A DNA stretch of 64,000 nt from Podospora anserina. Taxonomy: Eukaryota. Shown here piece after piece: positions 18,177 through 52,400 of the stretch. The notes beneath the pieces were generated by a model. It saw only the letters and a program-made list of their open reading frames with translations. It searched no databases and was not told where the DNA came from. Numbering within the stretch: the stretch's first letter is position 1; each line of letters opens with the position of its first letter. The stretch spans positions 1,240,001 to 1,304,000 of the forward strand of contig CM030336.1 of the NCBI GenBank assembly GCA_017654855.1, read 5' to 3'. Position numbers and translations under genes: made by a program.

Positions 18177-18931
18177 ATGGTCTTCACCTTCCCCGCAGAC
18201 CTCTACTCCACCGACCCCAACTTCACCACCCTCTTCCGCCTCCTCGACGATTTCGACACCTACTCCCGCGAAGTCCAAGATGAATCAGCCTCCACCCCAG
18301 CCCCTGCCTCACGCGGAGGCCGTCACCGCCGCGGCCCCCGCCCCCGCTTCGGTAGGTACCTCTACCACATCCCCCAAGCACTCTTGTTAACCCGTCCCAC
18401 AACTCAGACATCCGTGAGACCCCCAAATCCTACGAAATCTACGGCGAAGTCCCCGGCATGTCCCGCTCCGACATCCACATTGAACTAACCCAGGAAAACG
18501 TCCTCCTCATCCGGGGCCACGTCGAGCGCCCCTACGACACCACCCCCTCCAACAAAACCAAGGCTAAGCCCGTCACCGTCACTGGCGAGAAGTGCGACGA
18601 TTGTGACTGCGGGCCTGGTAAGCCGTGTGAGGAGTGTGACAAGGCCAAGTGTGAGTGTACACAGGGGAAGCATTGCAATGTCTGTGGGATGGATACCTGT
18701 CCCAAGCATGAAGGGGAGGGGGCGGCCAAGGCAGAGGGGAAGAAGGATGGGAGCGAGACGATTCGGTATCTGTTGAAGGAGAGGTTCGTTGGGGATTTCA
18801 GCAGGGAGTTTGCCTTTCCGGGGCCGCTGCAGGAGTTTGATATTGGGGCTAGCTTGGAGGATGGGATTTTGAAGGTTGTGGTGCCGAAGCAGGAGGTTGC
18901 CAAGGGCGGGAGGAAGATTGAGATTCAGTAG
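18177..18931 (+). CDS. Small heat shock protein (Hsp20/Hsp30 family) with Cys-rich insertion, 2 exons
   Basis: LFRLLDDFD, spliced PRFDIRET..YEIYGEVPG (intron about 18352-18408), ERFVGDFSREFAFP, ASLEDGILKVVVPK, KIEIQ (IxI motif). Confidence 0.92.
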
Positions 18932-40897: not shown

Positions 40898-41957
40898 ATG
40901 AAATTTCCCGGGATCCTGAAGAGAAGGCTCATTCCGGCCACCCGACTCAGATTCACAGGCCACATGCAAACAATAATTCGAAACATGGGAGACCTGAATA
41001 ACACAGAGGCGATGAGGGAGCATGTGAAGCCGGCCCATGACTCCACGTACGAGTTCAAATCCTTTGCAATCCGTCCCTGCGATGAAGACCAGGACATACG
41101 CAAGCGGTACCGTCCGTTCCTTTTGAGCGATGAAATCTCCGAGTCAGATTGGGTGTCGAAGCTCGAATTGGCCACAGCGGCGAAAATGGTCGACACTGAG
41201 CTGCTCGTTCAAAATAAGGACAGGCTAAAGATCCTCGTGCTCTACGGAAGTCTTCGGGCGCGGTCAGTTGCTTTTTTTTATAAGAGTCTACCGATGGATA
41301 CGCATTAGCTGACAATTATCAGATCATTCTCCAAGCTTCTTGCGTACGAGGCTTCACGCATTCTCTTCCGCCTCGGCTGTGATGTAAGAGTGTACGATCC
41401 AGCGGGTCTCCCAGTCAAGGATGATGAGCAGCACGACCATCCCAAAGTGCGTGAGCTTCGGGAGCTTAGCAAGTGGAGTGACGGGCATGTCTGGATCAGT
41501 CCCGAACAACACGGGAACTTAGTACGACTCCTCCCACAAAGATTCTGGGTAGATTTTCTGGCTAACTCTTGCATAGACCGCCGTCTTCAAGAACCAGATC
41601 GACTGGATCCCACTCTCAACCGGCTCTGTCCGACCCACTCAGGGGAGGACCTTGGCTATTGCGCAGGTCAATGGCGGTTCCCAGTCGTTCAACGCCGTCA
41701 ACTCTCTGCGTATTCTGGGCCGTTGGATGAGAATGTTTACCATTCCAAACCAGAGTTCCATCCCGCAAGCATGGACGCACTTTACGGATGCCAATGATCC
41801 TGTGGATGGGGGAAACCGACTGAAGCCAAGCTCCAACAGGGATAGGCTGGTGGATTGCATGGAGGAGCTGGTCAAGTACACCATTGTTATGCGGCCACAC
41901 TTTGATCTCTTTGGGGACCGGTTCAGCGAGAGGGAAGAGGCAAAGGTTAAAAAGTGA
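40898..41957 (+). CDS. arsH: ArsH arsenical-resistance NADPH-dependent FMN reductase, 3 exons
   Basis: [29 protein letters not shown]...[30 protein letters not shown]. Introns about 41263-41322 and 41522-41576. Confidence 0.92.
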
Positions 41958-42463
41958 ACAACGCCCTTTGCGGTTTGATTTGTCTTGTTGGGAATTACCT
42001 AGGTACGTATCAGAACAACCAAAAGTGATGCAGGTAGCTAAACTCAGGAAAACCCGACGGTTTAGACTTGAGCCGTCTTTCTGTGCCACAGCAATCTCTC
42101 ACCAAAGACTGTAAATATTGGCCGTTGTTGCTTAATGTCCTGACCCAACCTTACATCTCCGCAATTCACTGACCTCTTGTTTAGCGACCCGATCAGCGTT
42201 ACCACTGTCTCATCCCCAGGCCTTCCCCATCTCGTCTACCTACAATGGGCTCTTCTTATGTTGGTTTGGCTGGAATCTCTTCTTCCGAGCGTTAACTTTG
42301 TTCCCGCCGCCGGCTTGCTCGGTCTGGTTTTTGACTGATTGGTCCTCGGGTTTGCGCTTCTTGACAGGTCCACCTACCTGTGTTCACAACGATAGCAGTG
42401 CCACCAACACTGTTGCCGTCCCCAGAAATTCCAGCACGACTGAAGTTGTCCACATTTCTAGCT

Positions 42464-42851
42464 CTAAGGCGAAAAGTTCATAAGTTCCTGAGCAGTATCC
42501 TGGCCCATTGCCACTCGCTCCAATGCAGCTATCCACTCCTCGAGATTATTCTTCAGACCTTCGTCCGTTTTAATATTCCCGCGGCTGAAAGCTTCCCGAT
42601 GAGGACCTAGAAATGATTTGAATGGATATTTTCTCTCGTGGCGTTTAAAGGGTCCATTGTCGGCGATGTCCCTTGCGAAGTAAGGTTCTCGAGTATTAGG
42701 TTGAGGGACGAATGAGTTTGAACCGGGACATACAACGTACCTGACACATCGGGCAACGATTTATTGATTCGCCGTATGTAGAGCAATACCCTTTAGCTTT
42801 ACACTTGGCATAATCCTGCCCGGTATTGGCGCACTGACAGTGGTAGGGCAT
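42464..42851 (-). pseudogene. Cys-motif family copy A (frameshifted)
   Basis: MPYHCQCANTGQDYAKCKAKGYCSTYGESINRCPMCQ then GTACGT. The +1 frame continues YVVC...NNLEEWIAALERVAMGQDTAQEL. No in-frame acceptor found. Confidence 0.6.
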
Positions 42852-43316
42852 ATCGGCGTTGTGGTATTGGATGCTTCCGGTGTCTGTTTTGAAGTGATGG
42901 TGACGGAAAAGGTCGCGGGTGTTGGACTTGCCTTGAATTAAATAGTAGAAAGACAATAGCACGTGTTATTGCTGGTGACAGCATCAGAGACACGCGAGAC
43001 GTTCTGAAACAGGCCTCACGGTGGTCGTAAGGGAATTTCATGGCGTATGACCATGGCTTACTTCGGATTAACTCACCAGATGGGTAATCGATGGGATGGA
43101 AAGGTTCCAGTGTTGAAAGACTAAGCTGAGAAGTTGTCAATCGCGGTAAGCAGTGGGGGACTGACTTTTATCACGCCTGTGTGGGGTCACAATAACTTTT
43201 CCTTTAACTCTCTAAGCCTTTGATTTACCACATTACAAGCCCATATTAGTCTGCTTCCTGTATCATCCTCTTCCCCCAGCCCTTTGCTATGATCACCGGT
43301 GATGCCTTAGGCTTTC

Positions 43317-43992
43317 TTACTGTCCCCGGCTCTCTACATCAGGGCTGCCCAATGTCATCGCACCCATGGCCTTCTCCACCTCCCCAGAGCCATCAAGCTC
43401 GTTGTCATTGCCAGCAGTCTTCTCCTCACTGCCAGTGGTCCCATCAGGGTTGTTTGTCTTGGGAGGACTATCAGGGTGGTAGAAGCTCGTCTCCTCAGTC
43501 GCCACCGACATCAGTGAATCCAAGTATTCTTCTTGCTTCCTCTCCAGGTTCTCTTTGTAGCTGATGTCGGGGCGGCTCTACTGCTTCTCATCATGCCAAT
43601 TGTACTGAGGAAAACCACAACCAGTGTCTTTGGCGCGCTGAAGTGGGCGGGTGCCGGGAACAAAGTTATCCTGCTTTCCCCAGGCCCGATGGATGCTCAT
43701 ACCAGGTGGAGGAATGTCGGTTGGATAGTCCTCCTCTTCGGTGCCGGGGGTGGGTTCAAAGGAACTGGATGGTACGGATGGAATGGCGTATTTATTCTCG
43801 AGGAGGACGGGGCCACAGTTGGCGACCTATTGAAAGTCTTGTCAGCGTCGTGTTCTTCGGGTCGTGAAAGACAAGACATACCCGGCAGTGGTGACAGCGG
43901 TTGAGGTAGAAGTGTGCTCCGACACAGGTCTCCTGAGCTTTGCAATGCCTCCATTGCCCGAGGGCACGGCATTGACAACGATATCCCGACAT
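43317..43992 (-). pseudogene. Cys-motif family copy B (one in-frame TAG)
   Basis: Exon 1 MSGYRCQC...NRCHHCR; intron 43827-43881 (GTATGT/GCTGAC/TAG); exon 2 VANC... with TAG at 43578-43580, frame open to 43317. Confidence 0.7.
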
Positions 43993-44539
43993 TTTGTCAG
44001 AACTTGTCAGTGGAGGATGTGTGAAAGAAATTGAAGATGATGGCCGACTTTGTTTCAGTCCATGGGGTCGAAAAAGGAGGTGAGAATCTGACAGTGTGAT
44101 TCGGGACAAGGTTGGCATCAGATAACAACAACAAAAAGTATCTGTCGACTTGGGAGTCGCCTGCAAAACAAGGCTTCACAGCGGCAGACGGTAGCTCTCC
44201 CTGCCTGATAGCAGAACCTCACCGCGGGGTCTGCTTGGGTGTAGGCTGTTGTGGGTTCGAAAAGTAACTCGAACCAATGAGCGTGCCATAGCTCAGGTTG
44301 ACTCTGAAAAGCAGCAGTCCCAAGGCAGCAGCAGGGTCTGAAGACGTCTGCTGGCATGCCCAAGGTGCACGTGCCTCTGGCACACCAGTCAACAGGGCAG
44401 AGCAAGATAATCACAGCTTAGGTGCAATGTTCCTAAAATGTCTCCAAATAAACTGCATTTTCTGTGTTCTCAGCTACCTAACCGCGTGCCCAGGACCTGC
44501 TTGGCATTCAACCTATCTGGCCCATTGCCCTCCTCCAAA

Positions 44540-45018
44540 TTACTTCTTCTGGTTCTGGTACGGGTGACAAAAGCTCGTTTTGCCCTTGTACCCATCCATT
44601 ATATAGTCAGCATAAGCCTTCCTCTGTTCCAGGCTGTCATTGTTGGGATATGGAACACCGAGCAAGCTCTGGCTTCCGTTGGGAACAATGTCCCCTTAAG
44701 TTGTCCCGTGAGCCTGTCCGCCGCTATTACTGCCTTGAGCTGCGAGGTATGGCGACCAGGACGAGGTGTTACTGGCATGCGTGTTATTGGCATGGTTGGT
44801 GAAAGTGTAGGCCGGTTGCTGAGTTTGGTGAGACGACGGGGCGACATAACAGGTAACCTATTGTTGAGAGAATTAGTACCAGCTCACTTGGAGACCTTTC
44901 AGGACAGCTTGTCGTTAATTACCTGGCACTTCCCACACAAGCTGGAAGTATTGTGCCATTGCTGGCATTGCTGGGCTCTGCAGGAGCTGGGGCTTGCGCG
45001 GCATTTGCAAGTAGGTAT
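44540..45018 (-). pseudogene. Cys-motif family copy C (ATA start, in-frame TAA)
   Basis: (I)PTCKCRASPSSCRAQQCQQWHNTSSLCGKCQ; intron 44858-44922 (GTAATT/ACTAAT/TAG); exon 2 VTC... TAA 44696-44698 ...LEQRKAYADYIMDGYKGKTSFCHP. Confidence 0.7.
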
Positions 45019-45536
45019 TTTGATAGCCGTGCTTCGTGGTGTAAAGTGTGTTGGATTTATCGCTTGTGTCGAGCCCAACGGTAGAAGCTGTGGAGGTTGA
45101 TGGCTTGCTGAAACAACCAGAGAAAGTTGTCTGCTCGGTGCCATTATATCTTAGTTCCACCATGGTAATCTGAATCACGATCTATTTTCAGTGACCACTG
45201 ACAACTCATACTTAAGATACGCATGTATTCATGTTGAGCCATGTGCAGTTCTTCGAGATAAACCTCGTTACCCTATCCTGATCACAGCTATTCCCAACTG
45301 ACTACTTATAAAACTCTGAATAAACAAGACTTGTTTGTGGAGCCAGGATGTGCAGCTTTAAGCCTACCAGTCATAAGTTATAAGAAAGAGGATCACGCGT
45401 GAAAGAAAGTGTCATGAATCGTCAACGTAGAGAAGAAAAGCCAGTGTACAATCTTCATCAACACACCTCTGAAATAAACACAACTCCATTCCCAAAGAAA
45501 CCCCAGTGACGACTCTATCAAGACATCCGTGCACCT

Positions 45537-46075
45537 TCATTTCTTATCACCATCCTTCATTGTCAAGTCTCTCTGTCTTTCCGCTTCATGCTCTCTCATG
45601 GCCTGATCCAACCGCTCCACCACCTCGGATGCAGAGGCCTTTCCCAGCGCAATAGCTGCCATAGCCTCGATGTAGGACTGGAATCCAATCTGATAGTCCT
45701 GCGGTGCCCGCACCTTGACGAGGTTCACATGGCCCACCAGCATGTCACGGCTGTAGTTGGCGAATGGGGGTGACATTGCCCGATATCCATCAAATCCGCC
45801 TCTGGGAGAGACGGGTGACTTGTTGAACTGGCATCTGTTGTCCTGTGTAGCTGTTAGAAACGATTCTTATGTATCTTTCAATAACATTACGTCGGATATA
45901 ATAAAAACATTCAGGGTTGATCAAAAACGCGACATGATGGATGAAGCTGGATGGAATGGGCAGGTCATACGCGACACCCCTCACAATAGAGTTCTTTATC
46001 GTGCCAGACAGCACAGTTCAGCGACGACCGGCAGTTCGGCTTCAAGTCAACATTCTGGCACCGGCACAGTGGCAT
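45537..46075 (-). CDS. Cys-motif family copy D (apparently intact, about 136 aa)
   Basis: Exon 1 MPLCRCQNVDLKPNCRSSLNCAVWHDKELYCEGCR; intron 45843-45970 (GTATGA/CTAAC/CAG); exon 2 DNRC... splices in frame into ORF 45537-45776. Confidence 0.75.
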
Positions 46076-46807
46076 GTTTTATTCTGGTTCTGACGCGATA
46101 GATATGAGCTGCTGGTGATGGTGAACGGGGGCAGCCTGGTCATTATGGTATTGATGAGGAGAGTTGCCGACGCGCGAAATTCGAGAGCCTCAGCGGTTAA
46201 GGCAGAGTCCTACTTAGATGCAGTTTCTGTCAAGCTGAGGAGGCAACATGGGCTGCACCGCCTCCCGCCACACGAATTGTGGGTGGCCTTTGCCTGTGTG
46301 TGTGTGACCAACAAATGCACGTGCAGCTGGACCTGTGCGCGCCCCTTTAATAAAAGTGGGAAGACAGGCAGTCCTGCCAAGGTAATAAACGTGGAGGCAG
46401 TTCGGTGAGGCTTGCTTACGAAAATAGTATATCTCACCAAAATGCACATTCAGGCTTGACTCTTGGGCTCAGACACGGCTACTATGATGAGCTGTCATGA
46501 ATCACAAAGGCGACAGATCAATTACCAGGGGGTTGGGCAGTCAGGCTTAGCTGCGGCGGCAGGTCGGTTAAATAGGTACCTCATCATTCATCCTGGCAAA
46601 GTCCACATTCATAAATGCAAAGGTCAGGTTGTTGAATATGGCTGCTTTTTAGAAACCAAGTCCATTTTCAAGTAGGTAAGGTAAGGCAATTTGCGCTGTA
46701 AGGGCATCCACAATATGCCCCTCTGAACCCCTGAATGGCTCTCTGACCCTATGCTGAACTCCACTCTTGTTCAGCATTCCATACACCAATACCTAACTCA
46801 CTCTACC

Positions 46808-47110
46808 TTATTTTTGGCTTGAGTTTCCGTCGGATGTTCCTGCATCTTGGTTCGCGGGAGTTTTATCCTCCTGTCCCTTTGCCTGCTTTTTTGCCTCTCT
46901 TTTCGCCATCATCTTTGGACCTAGACGTTCGCCTTCTTCTCCACTACCCACCCAATTTTCATGTGGACCAGTGCCACCAGTGCTACCATCTGAACTGCCT
47001 CCGTTGTCTATGTTTCCCAACTTCCTAGCTTTGTTGTGACGGACGAGAGGGACGTTGAAGTTCTGGTTAATGTTGAATCCTTGACTTGGATGCAGTGTCA
47101 TGGGCTTCAA
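46808..47110 (-). other. Low-complexity ORF, possible relic tail
   Basis: Gly/Ser/charged 100-aa frame with TTG start, located about one array period upstream of copy D. No Cys exon found. Confidence 0.2.
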
Positions 47111-48129
47111 AGAATCTGGGGATCAGAGCCTATCCTCTCTATTTATCTACCATGCGAACAAAGGGTCGCTGTGGATTGGCCGAAAGTGATATTAAAATCT
47201 TGTTCTTTATTCGATCCTATCACACTTACGAGGACATCCCAAGGCCATTGCCAACAGTATTTCGCAATCCATTCCCACCAAGTATGTGTGCACCAATGAG
47301 TAAGATGGTAAGTGGGATTTCTTCAAGGCTCCGATGTGCCTTTCATCGTGTGCGTTGTTCAACCGTTGACAAAAGCCAAGGCTGGTTGGAATGCACAAAG
47401 GAACGCTAGACTCAAAGCAACTGTTTGGTTGTCAGCAATCATCCCTGACTGCTTGCTGAGATCCATGGTGGCGCCACTTGGTATACACCACCAACATCGA
47501 ATGGAATGTTACATGTAGAGTTGAGGAGGAGGCCAGCCAGCTGCCACAGACTCACAGGACTTGCAGCTGTTTGAGATTCACTGCCCTAGCTTTGAAGAAA
47601 TTGGGTCGTAGGTGCCTACAGATTTCATAGTAGAGCCAACTTGGTCAATGCCCTCAGAATGCTCGCGACTTGAGATGGCAGTTAGTACTAAGCATAGGTA
47701 CCTAAGGTACCTTACCATGAGATATTCGAATCACTTCCAAATTCCAGTTCCAGACCAGGTAGTCTTTGAGGCATGTGAATAATCTTTCCATCGCCTTGAC
47801 AGACATGGGTATCTACCTACCTGAAGGTCTCTCGACTTGAATTTTCAGTGGAAGAAGCTAGCCGGTAACTGCTGAGGAGTGTAGCTTCCTTACTGGTAGG
47901 CCATAGACTTAACCTACCGACAGTGAAACTCGGTGCTTCCTGTTTGCCAAGGTGCCTCATATTCACTCTGCAGACCGGGTGACGTAACAGCCACCTCATG
48001 GGCTTTGCCCAACAGATCACCACCAAACCTCAACTGAGCCATTGAACTTTTACATCAATGCCTAGGAAAAGTACCCATCATTCGTAAGCTTGCATCTTAC
48101 ATCATCTCGTTTTACACCCCATCGTCAAG

Positions 48130-48898
48130 ATGCCAGTGCTCATATCGCGCACAACCTGTTACTGCAAGCAGACCAAGTTCGCAAAATGCAAGTCACCTGG
48201 CAAATGCACTGGAGGGACCCTGAATAGGCATTCAAACTGTCTAGGGAAGCGGGCGCACGCCTCTACTTCATGCGTCGCATTCCTATGTGCTGCGTAAGCC
48301 CTCATGCTATCCTTGATTTCCAGCTTGATTGATCTGACTTTGACTGACATGTTGCCCACGACAGGATACTTGTCCTGTGCCCAGAATCGAAGGCGTGCCT
48401 GACTGGATGAGGGCCATATCTGAAGGGAAGATCCGATCGATGAATACGCTGCCACTATCGGTAAAAAACTTGTCGGATTTTGAGGAAAGTACGGATGAAG
48501 GAACCAATGAAGACAAATACGGTATCAACATCTATGGCGAAGTTGCTACAGGGACAAAGAGCTAGGATCAGTCATCCCGGGAATTTTACCAACTTCTTGA
48601 TATCGCCATGCACACGAAGGGGCTCACGGAGGGCCAAAAGATGCTCAAGGCGACCAAGGTGGAGGCGATACGGCGGGCGTGGAGGCGGATGAAGAGGAAG
48701 TTTGAAGAGGAAGAAAGGGAACGGGTGCTATATTTCACTGAGCTCCGGGAGAGACTTCCGCAGCCTCATAACCTGATGTTCAGTCCGGCGGTGGAAAGCG
48801 ACGAGATAATCTTGACGAATTACGCCGAGGCGCCGGCGTCTACTAGAGTTGACAGCGAGATCGGCACGCCCGTCTCTGGTGTGGATCAGGAGGGATAG
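48130..48898 (+). pseudogene. Cys-motif family copy E (inverted; GG donor, in-frame TAG)
   Basis: MPVLISRTTCYCKQTKFAKCKSPGKCTGGTLNRHSNCL then GGGAAG at the homologous donor position (48244). ACTGAC..CAG acceptor at 48364; exon 2 DTC... TAG 48563-48565, frame open to 48898. Confidence 0.6.
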
Positions 48899-49421
48899 CG
48901 ATACTACAGCGTACTGTGTAGTGTTTGGAATATAACATATGATGGTTTGGTGATGTCCAAAAAGTCCCTGCTTCCAATGCCGAGATTGTTTCACAGCCAA
49001 GACTGGGAAGCTATCTGATTGGCTGAGCGGCTGTCGTAGCAACGGAAGCAGGCATCCTGACGACACTTAGTGGATCGATGCACGGACCGTGACGCGCCCG
49101 CGCCCGGGAATTTTTGGCTTCTCACGGGCCACAAGAAGAAGCAAACAGCCAAGAACTCCAAGCTGAAGCATCCCGGCATCACCATCATTTGCTGCGAGAT
49201 TGACATCCCCGTATCACCGCTCTGCCCACGATTACTTGGAGTTTCCAGACGCTGCCGCCGCTTGTTTCAACGTCCCAAATACCACCAACCTTAATTGCCC
49301 CACGAGACCTGCGCCCACTGCCCCTCAATGGCTGTGTATCCGTGACCACCGCCCTTCCATCTCTGCTGGATATTACGAGAGCACATCCAGGGACGGACCC
49401 CGCGACCACCGCAATACCAAG

Positions 49422-52400
49422 ATGAACGACGGCGACCACGACCGCCCCTCCCGGCCGAGCACCGCCCATTGGATCGGCGACACAGAGTCTACCGATAACA
49501 AACGGCCCGCCACCTCCGCTTCCGCCAGAGGAAGCAATCTCAAGCCCGAAAACATCCCTCCACTACACCCGCCCTCCGCCCTCGCCGTGCCCGAGACCAG
49601 CTATTTTGACAGCCCTAGCGGTGATCTAAGACACTCCGATTCCCAGGCCGAGATCGCTGTTCGACAGCACCTGCAAGACATCGAGTCTAGCTTTGACGCC
49701 CCTCTGTCACCCATTCCCTCGACCAGCAATGGCTTTGACGATACGTTTGTCTTCGACTCGCCGTCAAAGAAGCCGGCTGCACCATTGCCGAAGGCGCCTG
49801 CAGATGATGCCGACGAGTCGCAGATGCTACCCGTCCCGAGTCGAACGGCTTCCGGTACATCCAATAACGCTGACGTGTCCGAGCTAACCGAGTCTGGCAA
49901 CGACGAAAAGCAGGAGGATACCAGCAAGGCGACGCGGTCGTTGGAGGCATTTTCTTCCTCTCCGACAGCGGCTGCTGCGGCGCGGACGATATCGAGAGCC
50001 TTTTCCGAGGCCGTGTCCACCAACGCCGACACCAGCCCTGACAGGACGAACCCTCCCGAAGACGAGCCTTACCTTAATCATTCTACCGAAAGCTCTCTGG
50101 TCATACCGCCGAGCAAGGAAGAACCAGCCCACCACAACGATCAAGAAACCAATTGGCAGCGGGCATCAGTCGACACAGGGAGCGTCAACAGCCAGGCGAT
50201 GAAGTCTGCCAGCCGTCCCAAGTTCCTCCGGAGTCGAAACGCTAGTCAACGTTCGTCCGTGTCGTCGGCCCTCACCGATCCTGAGAGCGACAATACCGTG
50301 GGAATTGGAGATTATGCGCTCCAATCAGGGGGCGCCGTTCCCTCGCTGGGCATGCCCCGCAATTTCAACAGCTTTCTCTCCCGGTCTATCAGCATGGGCA
50401 GCATGGCTAGCGGAGTTGATGACATGCACGATCACATCGGGCCCAGCGTCGGTCAACTCGAAACCCTGGACGAAGTCGACTCGAGCCTCTCACCCCAACC
50501 ACAACCACCACCACACAGACGAGCACCACGTGTCGACGACGAAGAGGATGACGATGATGTGCTGCGAACCCCAACCCAATCCAAATCCTCGGCTGCGCTT
50601 GCCGCCCCGACCGATACTGTGCTCGCCCGACATGTTAGAGACGTACACGTGCCAGAATCGCTGGCGAAAGAATACAAGTCCAAGGGGGGGCTGACGACGC
50701 CGGGAAGGTCCGTCACGTTTGATAATGTCAATCTTGGGGCGTCCACGACGAGTCGGCATGGCAAGAGCCTGACGCTCAAGGAGCAGAGCAGCACCATTGA
50801 GCGGCTGAGCAAGGAGAACTTTGACCTCAAGCTCAAGGTTATGTTTTTGAGCGACCGTCTGGATAAGCTCTCTGAAGAGGGTATTAAGGAGATGATCTCG
50901 GAGAATGTGGAGCTCAAGACTGGGTTGGCGGTGTTGCAGCGGGATAACAAGGTGTTGCGGAGGCGGGTGAAGGAGCTGGAGAAGCAATTGAAGGACGAAG
51001 ACGAACGGCCGGGGACAGCTAAGAGCGCCGGGTCTGAGGATGAGGATGCGCATGACAGGGAGGAGGAGCTGATCTACCTGAGAGAACAAATGGAGGAGTA
51101 CGTCACGGAAATTGAGAGGCTACGGAATGAGAACCTTAACAGGGAAGCGGAGAAGAGAAAGATGGCCGAGCTTATCAAGACTTTGGGAGAAAGGGCCGGC
51201 GAGAGAATGGGCGAGAATCTGGGCCGACAAGAGGAAGCGGATGTCTGGAAGGATTTGTTGGAACAAGAGACTGCCAGGAGAGAACAAAGCGACGAGGATA
51301 ATCGCCGGCTACGCGACGAGGTATTCCGGTTGAAGCAGGAGATGGCCCAACAAATGGGGCTACCAACAAGCTCATCATCTAGCTTCCACCACAGCAGGAG
51401 GCACGCACCATTCTCACCCGCAGCACGACCACCGACAGCCTCGTTTTCGTCCCAGGATATGGACAACGCAACAACTGTGAGTGTCACACTGGTTGATGAC
51501 CTACGCCGGGAGAGTGAACAGTTGCGCCACGAGAACGCTGAGCTCCGCCGAGAAGTGGGCGCCCAGACCTCGATGTTGACGTCCAGGAACCGAGAGAAGG
51601 AGCGCTTGTACCAAGAGATTGAAGATCTCAAGATGGCCCAACGACGAGGCGGCCCAGCCCCATCGACTATCGACAGTCTCTTGGAACGGTCGGCATCCCG
51701 GGCTGGTGTTCACGAGCGGTCCCATTCACGCATTAGCGGCGGTGCCACGACAGTTCTCGACGACCTGGACCGGGATGAGCTCGAGGAGAAGCTGGCCGAG
51801 CTGCGTGACAAGAACAACGAGCTCAAGCTGCAGAATCAAGATCTGCAACGAGAGTTGGATGCCTGCATGGAAGACTTCGAGACCGCGGTGGAAGCTAAGA
51901 AGCAAGCCGAGGAGCTGGTCGCCGCCCTGCAAGAGGATATTGACGCCGCTATGAACGACTTGATGGCCCTCCAGGCGGAGCGTGACGAAGCACTGCAAGA
52001 GCATGCCAACCTCGAGGCCGAATTCGAAGCCTTGCGTAAGGAAGCACAAGAAGAGATTGATGCCCTGGAGGGAGAAGCAGACCAACGTACCGGCGAGATC
52101 GAGAGACTCCAGCTTGACCTCAATGACCGCACCGAAAACTTTGACGCCTTGCAGGAAGAGATGCGTAAGATGAGCGATGCACTTGTCAGACTGGAAGATG
52201 AGCAGGAGTCCAAGATTCGCCGGATCTCCCAACTGGAGCAAGAGCTCGGCGACGCCAACAGGGAGTTGGAGGAACTCGAGCTTAAGCTGCTCGAAGCCAA
52301 CGACAAGGCTAACCGCCTGTCGGTGCAGCAAGAGTCCAGCCAGGGCGAGATTGCCTTCTTGCGAGAAGAGCAGGAGGGAGACAAGATCCGGATTGGAGAC

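What the first reader, a model, noticed from the sequence alone, without database searches (positions are those of the whole stretch)
42464..48898. Hidden tandem family of five two-exon Cys-motif mini-genes between arsH and apsB
Seen: four head-to-tail minus-strand units spaced about 1.0-1.15 kb apart (starts at 42851, 43992, 45018, 46075) plus one inverted copy (48130). Each exon 1 encodes CxC-x(6-9)-C-x(4-5)-C-x(7-9)-[C/H]xxC. A phase-0 donor sits exactly one codon after the last Cys (GTACGT, GTATGT, GTAATT, GTATGA; degenerate GGGAAG in E). Exon 2 supplies one more Cys within 3-4 residues (VANC, VTC, DNRC, DTC). Little obvious DNA similarity remains between copies, yet Cys spacing and intron position are kept. 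No signal peptides. Inference: an old, fast-evolving family of intracellular metal-binding (probably Zn) proteins. I do not recognise the motif as any named zinc-finger class.
Basis: partly seen in the sequence, partly recalled or inferred. Interest (0 to 1): 0.9.

Follow-up and report, generated by a model that had tools for sequence, protein, structure and literature searches.

The report
Tandem family of small cysteine-domain genes
Between two ordinary genes of a Podospora-type fungus lies a row of five related mini-genes for small proteins with a fixed seven-cysteine, probably zinc-binding, head; two are working, spliced genes, one is doubtful and two are broken, and what they do is unknown.

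Summary
The five units exist at the stated starts. The Cys pattern is far beyond chance: 6 hits in the window against 0 in 100 simulated windows.

RNA-derived contigs confirm the predicted introns of B (43827-43881, 2 of 4 runs) and D (45843-45970, 4 of 4 runs).

The family is only partly hidden. B is the annotated hypothetical gene PODANS_5_12557, present in six Podospora species. D's 136-aa product is annotated only in P. pseudocomata.

Three details are corrected:
- A has no intron. Its 7th Cys is read straight through, and a +1 frameshift follows.
- E's real intron is 48294-48364. It sits at the family position only in another frame, so E is frameshifted.
- C starts with ATA, and its only contig is unspliced.

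Relatives were found only in Podosporaceae (Cercophora, Apiosordaria, Triangularia) among 1.84 billion representative proteins. There is no Pfam family.

The closest known motif is the second zinc finger of nuclear-receptor DNA-binding domains. The spacing C-x5-C-x9-C-x2-C-x4-C is identical, but the match is below threshold and seen only for the B lineage.

Best reading: a lineage-restricted, birth-and-death family with a zinc-structured head. Metal binding is inferred, not shown.

The parts
42699..42851 (-). Unit A, ATG-frame ORF of 51 codons. It holds the whole 7-Cys domain without an intron (Cys spacing 1,9,5,9,2,3). Stop at 42696-42698.
   Evidence: Found by the B+D HMM at E 7.5e-8. This exact ORF is not in the protein collection.
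42467..42739 (-). Unit A, +1-shifted continuation (YVVCPGSNSFVPQP...). It is homologous to the middle of B and cannot be reached from the ATG frame by any legal intron, so A is frameshifted.
   Evidence: P0014 matches it at E 0.0079. No predicted protein of 50-160 aa matches it.
43882..43992 (-). Unit B exon 1 (proximal ATG 43992). An in-frame upstream ATG at 44118 gives the 161-aa form annotated in four species.
   Evidence: A contig reaches 44172.
43827..43881 (-). Unit B intron: 55 nt, GTATGT...TAG, phase 0.
   Evidence: Joint in contigs of 2 of 4 runs, X1 and X13.
43578..43826 (-). Unit B exon 2, ending at TAG 43578-43580. This is the true stop: all orthologues end ...HDEKQ.
   Evidence: The gene is PODANS_5_12557 / QC76x_512557.
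44923..45018 (-). Unit C exon 1. It begins ATA, not ATG; an in-frame ATG lies upstream at 45144. Cys spacing 1,6,4,9,2,3.
   Evidence: HMM E 0.0067.
44858..44922 (-). Unit C predicted intron: 65 nt, GTAATT...TAG. Not confirmed.
   Evidence: The only contig here (X7, 44706-44900) crosses the acceptor unspliced.
44696..44857 (-). Unit C predicted exon 2 (VTC...), ending at TAA 44696-44698.
45971..46075 (-). Unit D exon 1 (ATG 46075). Cys spacing 1,8,5,9,2,4.
45843..45970 (-). Unit D intron: 128 nt, GTATGA...CAG, phase 0.
   Evidence: Joint in contigs of 4 of 4 runs.
45537..45842 (-). Unit D exon 2 with stop. The spliced product of 136 aa is identical to P0012. The C-terminal helical hairpin covers residues 83-133.
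48130..48293 (+). Unit E exon 1. The ATG frame carries Cys 1-4 of the domain. About 44 extra nt follow before ...IPMCC, which is in the +2 frame.
48294..48364 (+). Unit E true intron: 71 nt, GTAAGC...CAG.
   Evidence: Joint in contigs of 3 of 4 runs, X1, X4 and X7.
48365..48898 (+). Unit E exon 2. The ATG frame stops at TGA 48408-48410, giving a 69-aa ORF. The family frame (DTCPVP...) meets TAG at 48563-48565 and then stays open to 48898.
   Evidence: Contigs span 47805-48952.
44367..44374 (.). GCACGTGC palindrome, 375 nt upstream of B's proximal ATG. It is one of only two copies in the window.
46317..46324 (.). GCACGTGC palindrome, about 245 nt upstream of D's ATG. It is the other copy.

Best explanation
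This is a lineage-restricted (Podosporaceae) tandem gene family that evolves by birth and death. Each member encodes a small protein with no obvious signal peptide.

The N-terminal ~40 residues form a basic domain with seven cysteines at fixed spacing: C-x-C-x(6-9)-C-x(4-5)-C-x9-C-x2-C-x(3-4)-C. B, C and D also have a His three residues after the 4th Cys. The tails differ between members.

State of the five copies:
- B (= Pa_5_12557, 119 or 161 aa) and D (136 aa) are intact, transcribed and spliced at a shared phase-0 intron.
- C is of doubtful status.
- A lost the intron and then suffered a frameshift just after the domain.
- E keeps transcription and the ancestral intron, but is frameshifted inside the domain and has a further stop.

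Inferred mechanism, not shown: the cysteines (plus His) hold one or two zinc ions. The core Cys3-Cys6 would fold like a treble-clef finger, with a helix starting at CxxC. This compact basic module would bind a nucleic acid or a protein, and the divergent tails (an acidic, motif-bearing linker in B; a helical hairpin in D) would give each paralogue its own partners.
For: Family and non-randomness
- The Cys regex gives 6 hits against 0 in 100 simulated windows.
- An HMM that leaves out A, C and E recovers A at E 7.5e-8 and C at E 0.0067 as the best non-training ORFs of 1587.
- P0013 finds A at E 8.7e-5 and D at E 0.0094. P0014 finds A's shifted exon-2 frame at E 0.0079.

Expression and splicing
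- The arsH control introns are spliced in 4 of 4 runs, so these runs hold RNA.
- The D joint is seen in 4 of 4 runs, the B joint in 2 of 4 and the E joint in 3 of 4.

Annotation and conservation
- B is annotated in six Podospora species. D's product is identical to P0012.
- The B orthologue of Cercophora samala (66% identical to P0009) and a B-like partial protein of Apiosordaria backusii keep all seven Cys. C. samala keeps the same stop.
- The x9 and x2 spacings are invariant in all six domains tabulated.

Domain character
- pI 7.5-9.4.
- The AF2 model of D puts a short helix at residues 32-36, that is at CEGCR, but at low confidence. Only the C-terminal hairpin has pLDDT 79-88.

Treble-clef lead
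- Profile A5 hits only nuclear-receptor DNA-binding domains, 30 of 30 rows, best E 0.0071, all aligned on finger II.
- P0013 alone gives E 0.0053, with 23 of 27 rows being nuclear receptors.
- Pfam zf-C4 matches profile positions 37-64 of 70.

Decay of A and E follows from the sequence plus the RNA joints.
Against: - No test of metal binding was possible.
- AF2 gave no confident fold for the Cys domain: B mean pLDDT 44, and D's N-terminal blocks 42-48.
- E's Cys domain is not found by the family HMM at E below 1.5. Its membership rests on the pattern of the first four Cys, the neighbourhood, and the ...PMCC|DTC junction.
- The C-terminal parts of the paralogues show no significant similarity. 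The D-family HMM reaches only E 8.4 for A and nothing for B, C or E.
- The nuclear-receptor resemblance is absent when A or D is searched alone, or with the exon-1-only profile. It is below Pfam's cut-off: 14.7 against 21.1 bits, in 1 of 11 members.
- A and E may still make short Cys-rich peptides of 51 and 69 aa, so 'broken' refers to the family architecture only.
- The restriction to Podosporaceae comes from predicted-protein libraries. Those libraries miss 35-codon exons in unannotated genomes.
Confidence: 0.68

Rival explanations
1. Metal or metalloid buffer or chaperone. The Cys-rich heads would sequester Zn, Cu(I) or As(III) in the manner of a metallothionein or ArsD, and the position next to the ArsH-type FMN reductase would reflect a shared role in metal or arsenic stress.
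For: - Seven invariant Cys, including a CxC pair.
- The left neighbour carries FMN_red (PF03358, E 4.8e-10).
- Tandem amplification is common for metal-handling genes (general knowledge, recalled).
Against: - The domain is only 7 Cys in about 40 residues and is rich in aromatic, basic and polar residues at semi-conserved places (NR before Cys5; W/H after Cys4). That is unlike metallothioneins as I recall them.
- The conserved non-Cys tails of B (SFxPxPG..EE..P.DI..PP...HRA.G) are not needed for buffering.
- Two of the five copies are decayed.
- No expression data under metal stress were available.
Confidence: 0.13
2. True homologue of the nuclear-receptor DNA-binding domain. The core Cys3-Cys7 would descend from (or share an ancestor with) the second treble clef of zf-C4, and the proteins would be small DNA-binding regulators.
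For: - The spacing is identical: C-x5-C-x9-C-x2-C-x4-C in B and D.
- 30 of 30 PDB sequence hits of profile A5 are nuclear-receptor DNA-binding domains, best E 0.0071.
- P0013 shares the run NRCQFCR with NR2C2, E 0.0053.
- Pfam zf-C4 aligns exactly over its second finger, positions 37-64 of 70.
Against: - The score is below Pfam's gathering cut-off: 14.7 against 21.1 bits.
- Only 1 of 11 members scanned hits at E up to 10.
- Paralogues A and D alone, and the exon-1 profile, give no nuclear-receptor hit.
- Finger I (C-x2-C-x13-C-x2-C, pattern recalled) is absent.
- zf-C4 is regarded as an animal and choanoflagellate domain (PMC6792448, passages read).
- Short Cys-rich matches are prone to convergence.
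Confidence: 0.08
3. Mostly non-functional relics. Only fortuitous ORFs and leaky transcription would remain, and the Cys pattern would be a fading trace of one ancestral gene.
For: - A is frameshifted, E is frameshifted with a stop, and C lacks an ATG at the family start. C's only contig is unspliced.
- None of the units has a Pfam family.
Against: - B keeps its reading frame, all Cys and the same stop in Cercophora samala at 66% identity.
- D is spliced in 4 of 4 runs, and its exon 2 is 88% identical in Triangularia setosa.
- The x9 and x2 spacings are invariant across paralogues that share only 25-31% identity with D.
Confidence: 0.08

Closest known systems
Second zinc finger of the nuclear-receptor DNA-binding domain (Pfam zf-C4, PF00105, 'double treble clef')
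   Same: - The Cys spacing C-x5-C-x9-C-x2-C-x4-C is identical in B and D.
- The B lineage has an Asn-Arg before the third Cys and an Arg after the fourth.
- It is the best and only family among PDB sequence hits of the B-weighted profile and the only zinc-finger Pfam family touched.
   Different: - The first finger is missing. A CxC-x(6-9) lead and, in some members, a His replace it.
- The score is below the family cut-off.
- Paralogues A and D do not hit on their own.
- The host is a fungus, whereas zf-C4 is known from animals and choanoflagellates (PMC6792448, passages read).
- There is no ligand-binding domain.
Fungal Zn2Cys6 binuclear cluster (Pfam Zn_clus, PF00172)
   Same: It is a fungal, N-terminal, basic, Cys-only domain of about 40 residues with two triplets of Cys. 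A two-zinc cluster is conceivable.
   Different: - The spacing does not fit C-x2-C-x6-C-x5-12-C-x2-C-x6-8-C (pattern recalled).
- There are seven Cys, not six.
- No Pfam hit even at E up to 10.
- The proteins are far smaller than Zn2Cys6 regulators.
CCCH zinc finger (C-x8-C-x5-C-x3-H; pattern recalled)
   Same: Cys2-Cys3-Cys4-His of B, D and the Cercophora orthologue fit C-x8-C-x5-C-x3-H exactly.
   Different: - The His is missing in A, E and the Apiosordaria protein.
- There is no Pfam zf-CCCH hit.
- Three further invariant Cys are left unexplained.
Annotated hypothetical proteins PODANS_5_12557 / QC76x_512557 (unit B) and QC762_0077090 (unit D)
   Same: - B differs at 1 of 119 residues from the P. 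anserina S mat+ protein.
- D's product is identical to the P. pseudocomata protein.
   Different: The records carry no function or domain, and do not link B and D to each other or to the A, C and E remnants.

Membership tests
zf-C4 nuclear-receptor DNA-binding domain (PF00105) | Score at or above Pfam's gathering cut-off (21.1 bits) | tested here: not met
   The best is P0013 at 14.7 bits, E 0.045. 1 of 11 members of A5 hit at E up to 10. Window D, P0009 and P0007 gave 0 families.
zf-C4 nuclear-receptor DNA-binding domain (PF00105) | First finger C-x2-C-x13-C-x2-C carrying the P-box (pattern recalled) | tested here: not met
   Only C-x-C-x(6-9) precedes the core. The Pfam match covers profile positions 37-64 of 70 only.
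zf-C4 nuclear-receptor DNA-binding domain (PF00105) | Second finger C-x5-C-x9-C-x2-C followed by x4-C | tested here: met
   Spacing is 5,9,2,4 in B, D and the Cercophora orthologue, 5,9,2,3 in A and 4,9,2,3 in C. The alignments to PDB nuclear receptors lie on this finger.
zf-C4 nuclear-receptor DNA-binding domain (PF00105) | Two zinc ions bound; sequence-specific DNA binding | not testable with these tools
   The AF2 models of the head domain have pLDDT below 50.
Zn2Cys6 binuclear cluster (PF00172) | C-x2-C-x6-C-x5-12-C-x2-C-x6-8-C (recalled) and a Pfam match | tested here: not met
   The spacing is 1,8,5,9,2,4. There was no Zn_clus hit at E up to 10.
CCCH zinc finger (PF00642) | C-x(7-8)-C-x5-C-x3-H (recalled) conserved across the family, and a Pfam match | tested here: not met
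   The His is present in B, C and D but absent in A, E and P0014. There was no Pfam hit.
Metallothionein | Very high Cys content with few aromatic residues (recalled criteria) | tested here: not met
   There are 7 Cys in about 40 residues, with W, Y, F and H present in every copy.
The Podosporaceae 7-Cys family itself (B and D as founders) | Seven-Cys spacing, plus a phase-0 intron one codon after Cys6 | tested here: met
   - B and D: spacing and RNA-confirmed intron.
- C: spacing met, intron only predicted.
- A: spacing met, intron absent.
- E: first four Cys and the RNA-confirmed intron at the family position, but in a shifted frame.

The most novel reading that the evidence does not exclude
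The head is a previously unclassified Cys7(His) two-zinc finger. Its core would be a free-standing homologue of nuclear-receptor zinc finger II living in a fungus. That would mean a fragment of the 'animal' zf-C4 fold outside Holozoa, reached by deep common origin or by transfer. D would then be a strongly transcribed small regulator still missing from the reference annotation of the model fungus Podospora anserina.
Probability: 0.08. Interest if true: 0.75.

Novelty: new variant of a known kind. Interest (0 to 1): 0.42.

Why it matters
Podospora anserina is a model fungus. Unit D is spliced in all four RNA-type runs examined, yet among the named records found here its protein is annotated in only one sister species. 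It would be a cheap and useful correction to the reference annotation.

The family is a compact example of birth-and-death evolution. Cysteine spacing and intron position survive while everything else diverges, and all stages sit side by side: intact genes, a copy with intron loss plus frameshift, and a copy that is still transcribed but frameshifted.

If the head domain proves to be a new zinc module, or a true relative of nuclear-receptor finger II, it would add a fold class to fungal small proteins. If not, this is an ordinary lineage-specific orphan family.

Tried and rejected
- Own genome: none is held for this window, so paralogues elsewhere in the genome and synteny could not be checked.
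- The look-up of sequencing runs listed no holder on record as RNA. The four runs laid are 'RNA by guess'. Their RNA nature is inferred from the GT..AG joints in arsH.
- Unit A had only faint cover in X4, and unit C had no joint in any run. Lack of cover is not used as evidence. The depth figures of contigs are not used to rank expression, as the tool warns.
- ESM Atlas: the best score for D was 0.78, and there was no usable hit for B's head.
- Foldseek of the D model against the PDB gave nothing at E up to 0.001.
- AF2 of B was useless, with pLDDT 44.
- My first impression of a shared C-terminal helix motif in all five units, and of 'conserved in-frame stops' before it, is rejected. The D-family C-terminal HMM finds no paralogue (best E 8.4), and B's stop is simply its conserved stop.
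- RIP as the cause of divergence and stops: no RIP signature. The composite index is 1.13-1.53 in all units.
- DNA repeats among the units: none beyond 14-25-nt chance matches.
- Exact look-ups of A's 51-aa ORF, E's 55-aa and 96-aa ORFs and C's unspliced ORF: not in the collection.
- A's shifted exon-2 frame: no predicted protein matches it.
- Literature: no paper holds Pa_5_12557, PODANS_5_12557 or its neighbours' ids. A search on Podospora, cysteine-rich, lineage-specific, tandem and zinc gave nothing on this family among the 10 listed of 231.
- Lelandais et al. 2022 (PMC9801653, passages read) report 1732 intergenic transcribed regions.

Full report
WHERE WE ARE

The window comes from a fungus of the Podospora anserina species complex. 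Unit B's protein differs at 1 of 119 residues from P. anserina S mat+, and at 4-7 residues from five sister species.

The left neighbour carries an NADPH-dependent FMN reductase domain (PF03358, E 4.8e-10), which fits ArsH. The right neighbour carries Cnn_1N and Mto2_bdg, which fits ApsB/Mto1. No whole genome is held for the window.

THE OBSERVATION

All five units are at the stated starts. Five are the units and one is inside an unrelated Hsp20 gene. None of 100 Markov-1 simulated windows had a hit. No DNA repeat longer than chance links the copies, and there is no RIP signature.

HOMOLOGY

- An HMM made only from the B lineage and D finds A's exon 1 at E 7.5e-8 and C's at E 0.0067. These are the best non-training ORFs among 1587. 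The next unrelated ORF scores 0.057.
- Single-sequence searches link B to A (E 8.7e-5), B to D (E 0.0094), and the Apiosordaria protein to A's shifted downstream frame (E 0.0079).
- E is not recovered by the HMM in the right frame.
- The tails are not detectably related between paralogues. My first impression of a shared C-terminal helix is therefore withdrawn.

RNA EVIDENCE

Four runs guessed to be RNA were laid as contigs on 41000-49600. Both arsH introns (41262-41321 and 41522-41576) are spliced out in 4 of 4 runs, which shows that the contigs derive from RNA.

| Unit | Joint seen | Runs |
|---|---|---|
| B | 43827-43881, as predicted | 2 of 4 |
| D | 45843-45970, as predicted | 4 of 4 |
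| C | none; one 195-nt contig (44706-44900) crosses the predicted acceptor unspliced | 0 of 4 |
| A | none listed | 0 of 4 |

No joint links the ORF at 46811-47101 to D's exon 2.

CORRECTED ANATOMY

- A. Read straight through, the ATG frame gives CPMC-QVR-C. All seven Cys therefore lie in one 51-codon ORF with no intron. The GTACGT is simply Val-Arg. The homologous continuation (PGSNSFVPQP..., related to B's SSFEPTPG...) lies in the +1 frame, starting within TGTATGT. AG sites would give introns of 53 or 69 nt, which do not restore that frame. So A shows intron loss followed by a frameshift.
- E. The ATG frame holds Cys 1-4. Then 71 nt, instead of the family's 27, separate Cys4 from ...R-R-I-P-M-C-C|, which is in the +2 frame. 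This ends exactly one codon after the Cys at the RNA-proven donor. Exon 2 then opens with D-T-C-P-V-P. The intron position is therefore conserved, but about 44 extra nucleotides shift the frame, Cys5 has become Ile, and the family frame later meets TAG at 48563. The ATG frame of the mRNA gives a 69-aa Cys-rich ORF.
- C. It starts with ATA. An in-frame ATG lies at 45144. Its donor is GTAATT.
- B. The TAG after ...HDEKQ is the true stop, since it is shared by all orthologues.
- D. The spliced product of 136 aa is identical to P0012.

DISTRIBUTION

A profile of the family was searched against 1.84 billion representative proteins. It gave five hits at E up to 0.001. Three are real:
- a Cercophora samala B orthologue (E 3.5e-39);
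- a partial Apiosordaria backusii protein (E 5.3e-14);
- D's own C-terminal fragment.

The other two are repeat proteins.

Word-based searches found D's exon 2 at 88% identity in Triangularia setosa. That gene model uses a different first exon, resembling the window ORF at 46811-47101. They also found B in six Podospora species, and nothing for A.

These libraries hold predicted proteins. Unannotated genomes with 35-codon exons would be missed.

WHAT THE DOMAIN RESEMBLES

- Pfam gives nothing above a cut-off.
- The Atlas, AF2 (head domain pLDDT below 50) and Foldseek were uninformative.
- D's tail is a confident helical hairpin (residues 83-133, pLDDT 79-88), with a weak HEAT/alphaRep-like sequence match at E 0.056.
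- A sequence search of the PDB with the B-weighted profile returned nuclear-receptor DNA-binding domains in 30 of 30 rows (best E 0.0071). All are aligned on the second zinc finger.
- The Cercophora protein alone gave E 0.0053 and shares NRCQFCR with NR2C2. 23 of its 27 rows are nuclear receptors.
- Pfam zf-C4 aligns its positions 37-64 of 70 to residues 15-42, at 14.7 bits against a cut-off of 21.1.
- The spacing C-x5-C-x9-C-x2-C-x4-C of B and D is that of finger II plus the ninth conserved Cys (the nuclear-receptor pattern is recalled).

Against homology:
- A and D alone, and the exon-1 profile, give no such hit.
- Finger I is absent.
- zf-C4 is regarded as a domain of animals and choanoflagellates (PMC6792448, passages read).

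I treat this as the closest structural analogy, a treble-clef-like core. It is not membership.

MECHANISM

Shown:
- a real family;
- conserved Cys spacing and intron position;
- transcription and splicing of B, D and E;
- decay of A and E.

Inferred:
- The head binds zinc. A natural split is Cys3, 4, 5 and 6 for one site and Cys1, 2, His and Cys7 for a second.
- It forms a basic (pI 7.5-9.4) binding module.
- The tails specify partners.

Rivals are a metal or arsenic buffer, true nuclear-receptor homology, and mere relics. They are weighed in their own sections.

PRIOR KNOWLEDGE

No paper mentions the gene ids. The annotation pipeline of the sister species used RNA-seq evidence (PMC10936905, passages read). 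Lelandais et al. 2022 report 1732 intergenic transcribed regions, 55.8% of them with introns (PMC9801653, passages read). Their lists are in supplements I could not open, so D and E may already be among them.

VERDICT

The reading of a fast-evolving, probably zinc-binding family stands as an inference. The picture of five intact two-exon genes does not hold, and the family is only partly unannotated.

Noticed in passing
window 18356-18931 (+), Cys block at 18602-18685: An Hsp20/alpha-crystallin ORF (PF00011, E 4.6e-15) carries an insert with ten Cys in about 40 residues just before the crystallin domain. It is the sixth hit of the Cys regex but is not found by the family HMM.
   Followed up: partly
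window 44367-44374 and 46317-46324: The palindrome GCACGTGC (an E-box core) occurs only twice in 64 kb. One copy lies 375 nt upstream of B's ATG and the other about 245 nt upstream of D's ATG. B and D are the two intact, spliced members. The count alone is not unusual: 24 of 100 shuffles have 2 or more.
   Followed up: partly
window 46811-47101 (-): A 97-codon low-complexity ORF lies between D and E. It is present at 93-94% identity in two related Logan-derived proteins. The Triangularia setosa model P0001 joins a similar N-terminus to a D-like exon 2, whereas no such joint is seen here.
   Followed up: partly
window 43320-43577 (-): B's 3' untranslated region stays open in frame for 86 codons after the TAG stop. 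Close relatives show a 9-codon in-frame deletion and a changed end in this stretch. No homology to other family tails was found.
   Followed up: partly
window 45540-45800 (-), D residues 83-133: D's confident C-terminal helical hairpin gives weak sequence matches to designed HEAT-like alphaRep repeats (best E 0.056, no stretch passing on its own).
   Followed up: partly
window 46076-46187 (-): If D's transcript starts at or beyond 46187, where a contig ends in adapter, the leader holds a 33-codon upstream ORF that overlaps the main ATG out of frame.
   Followed up: no
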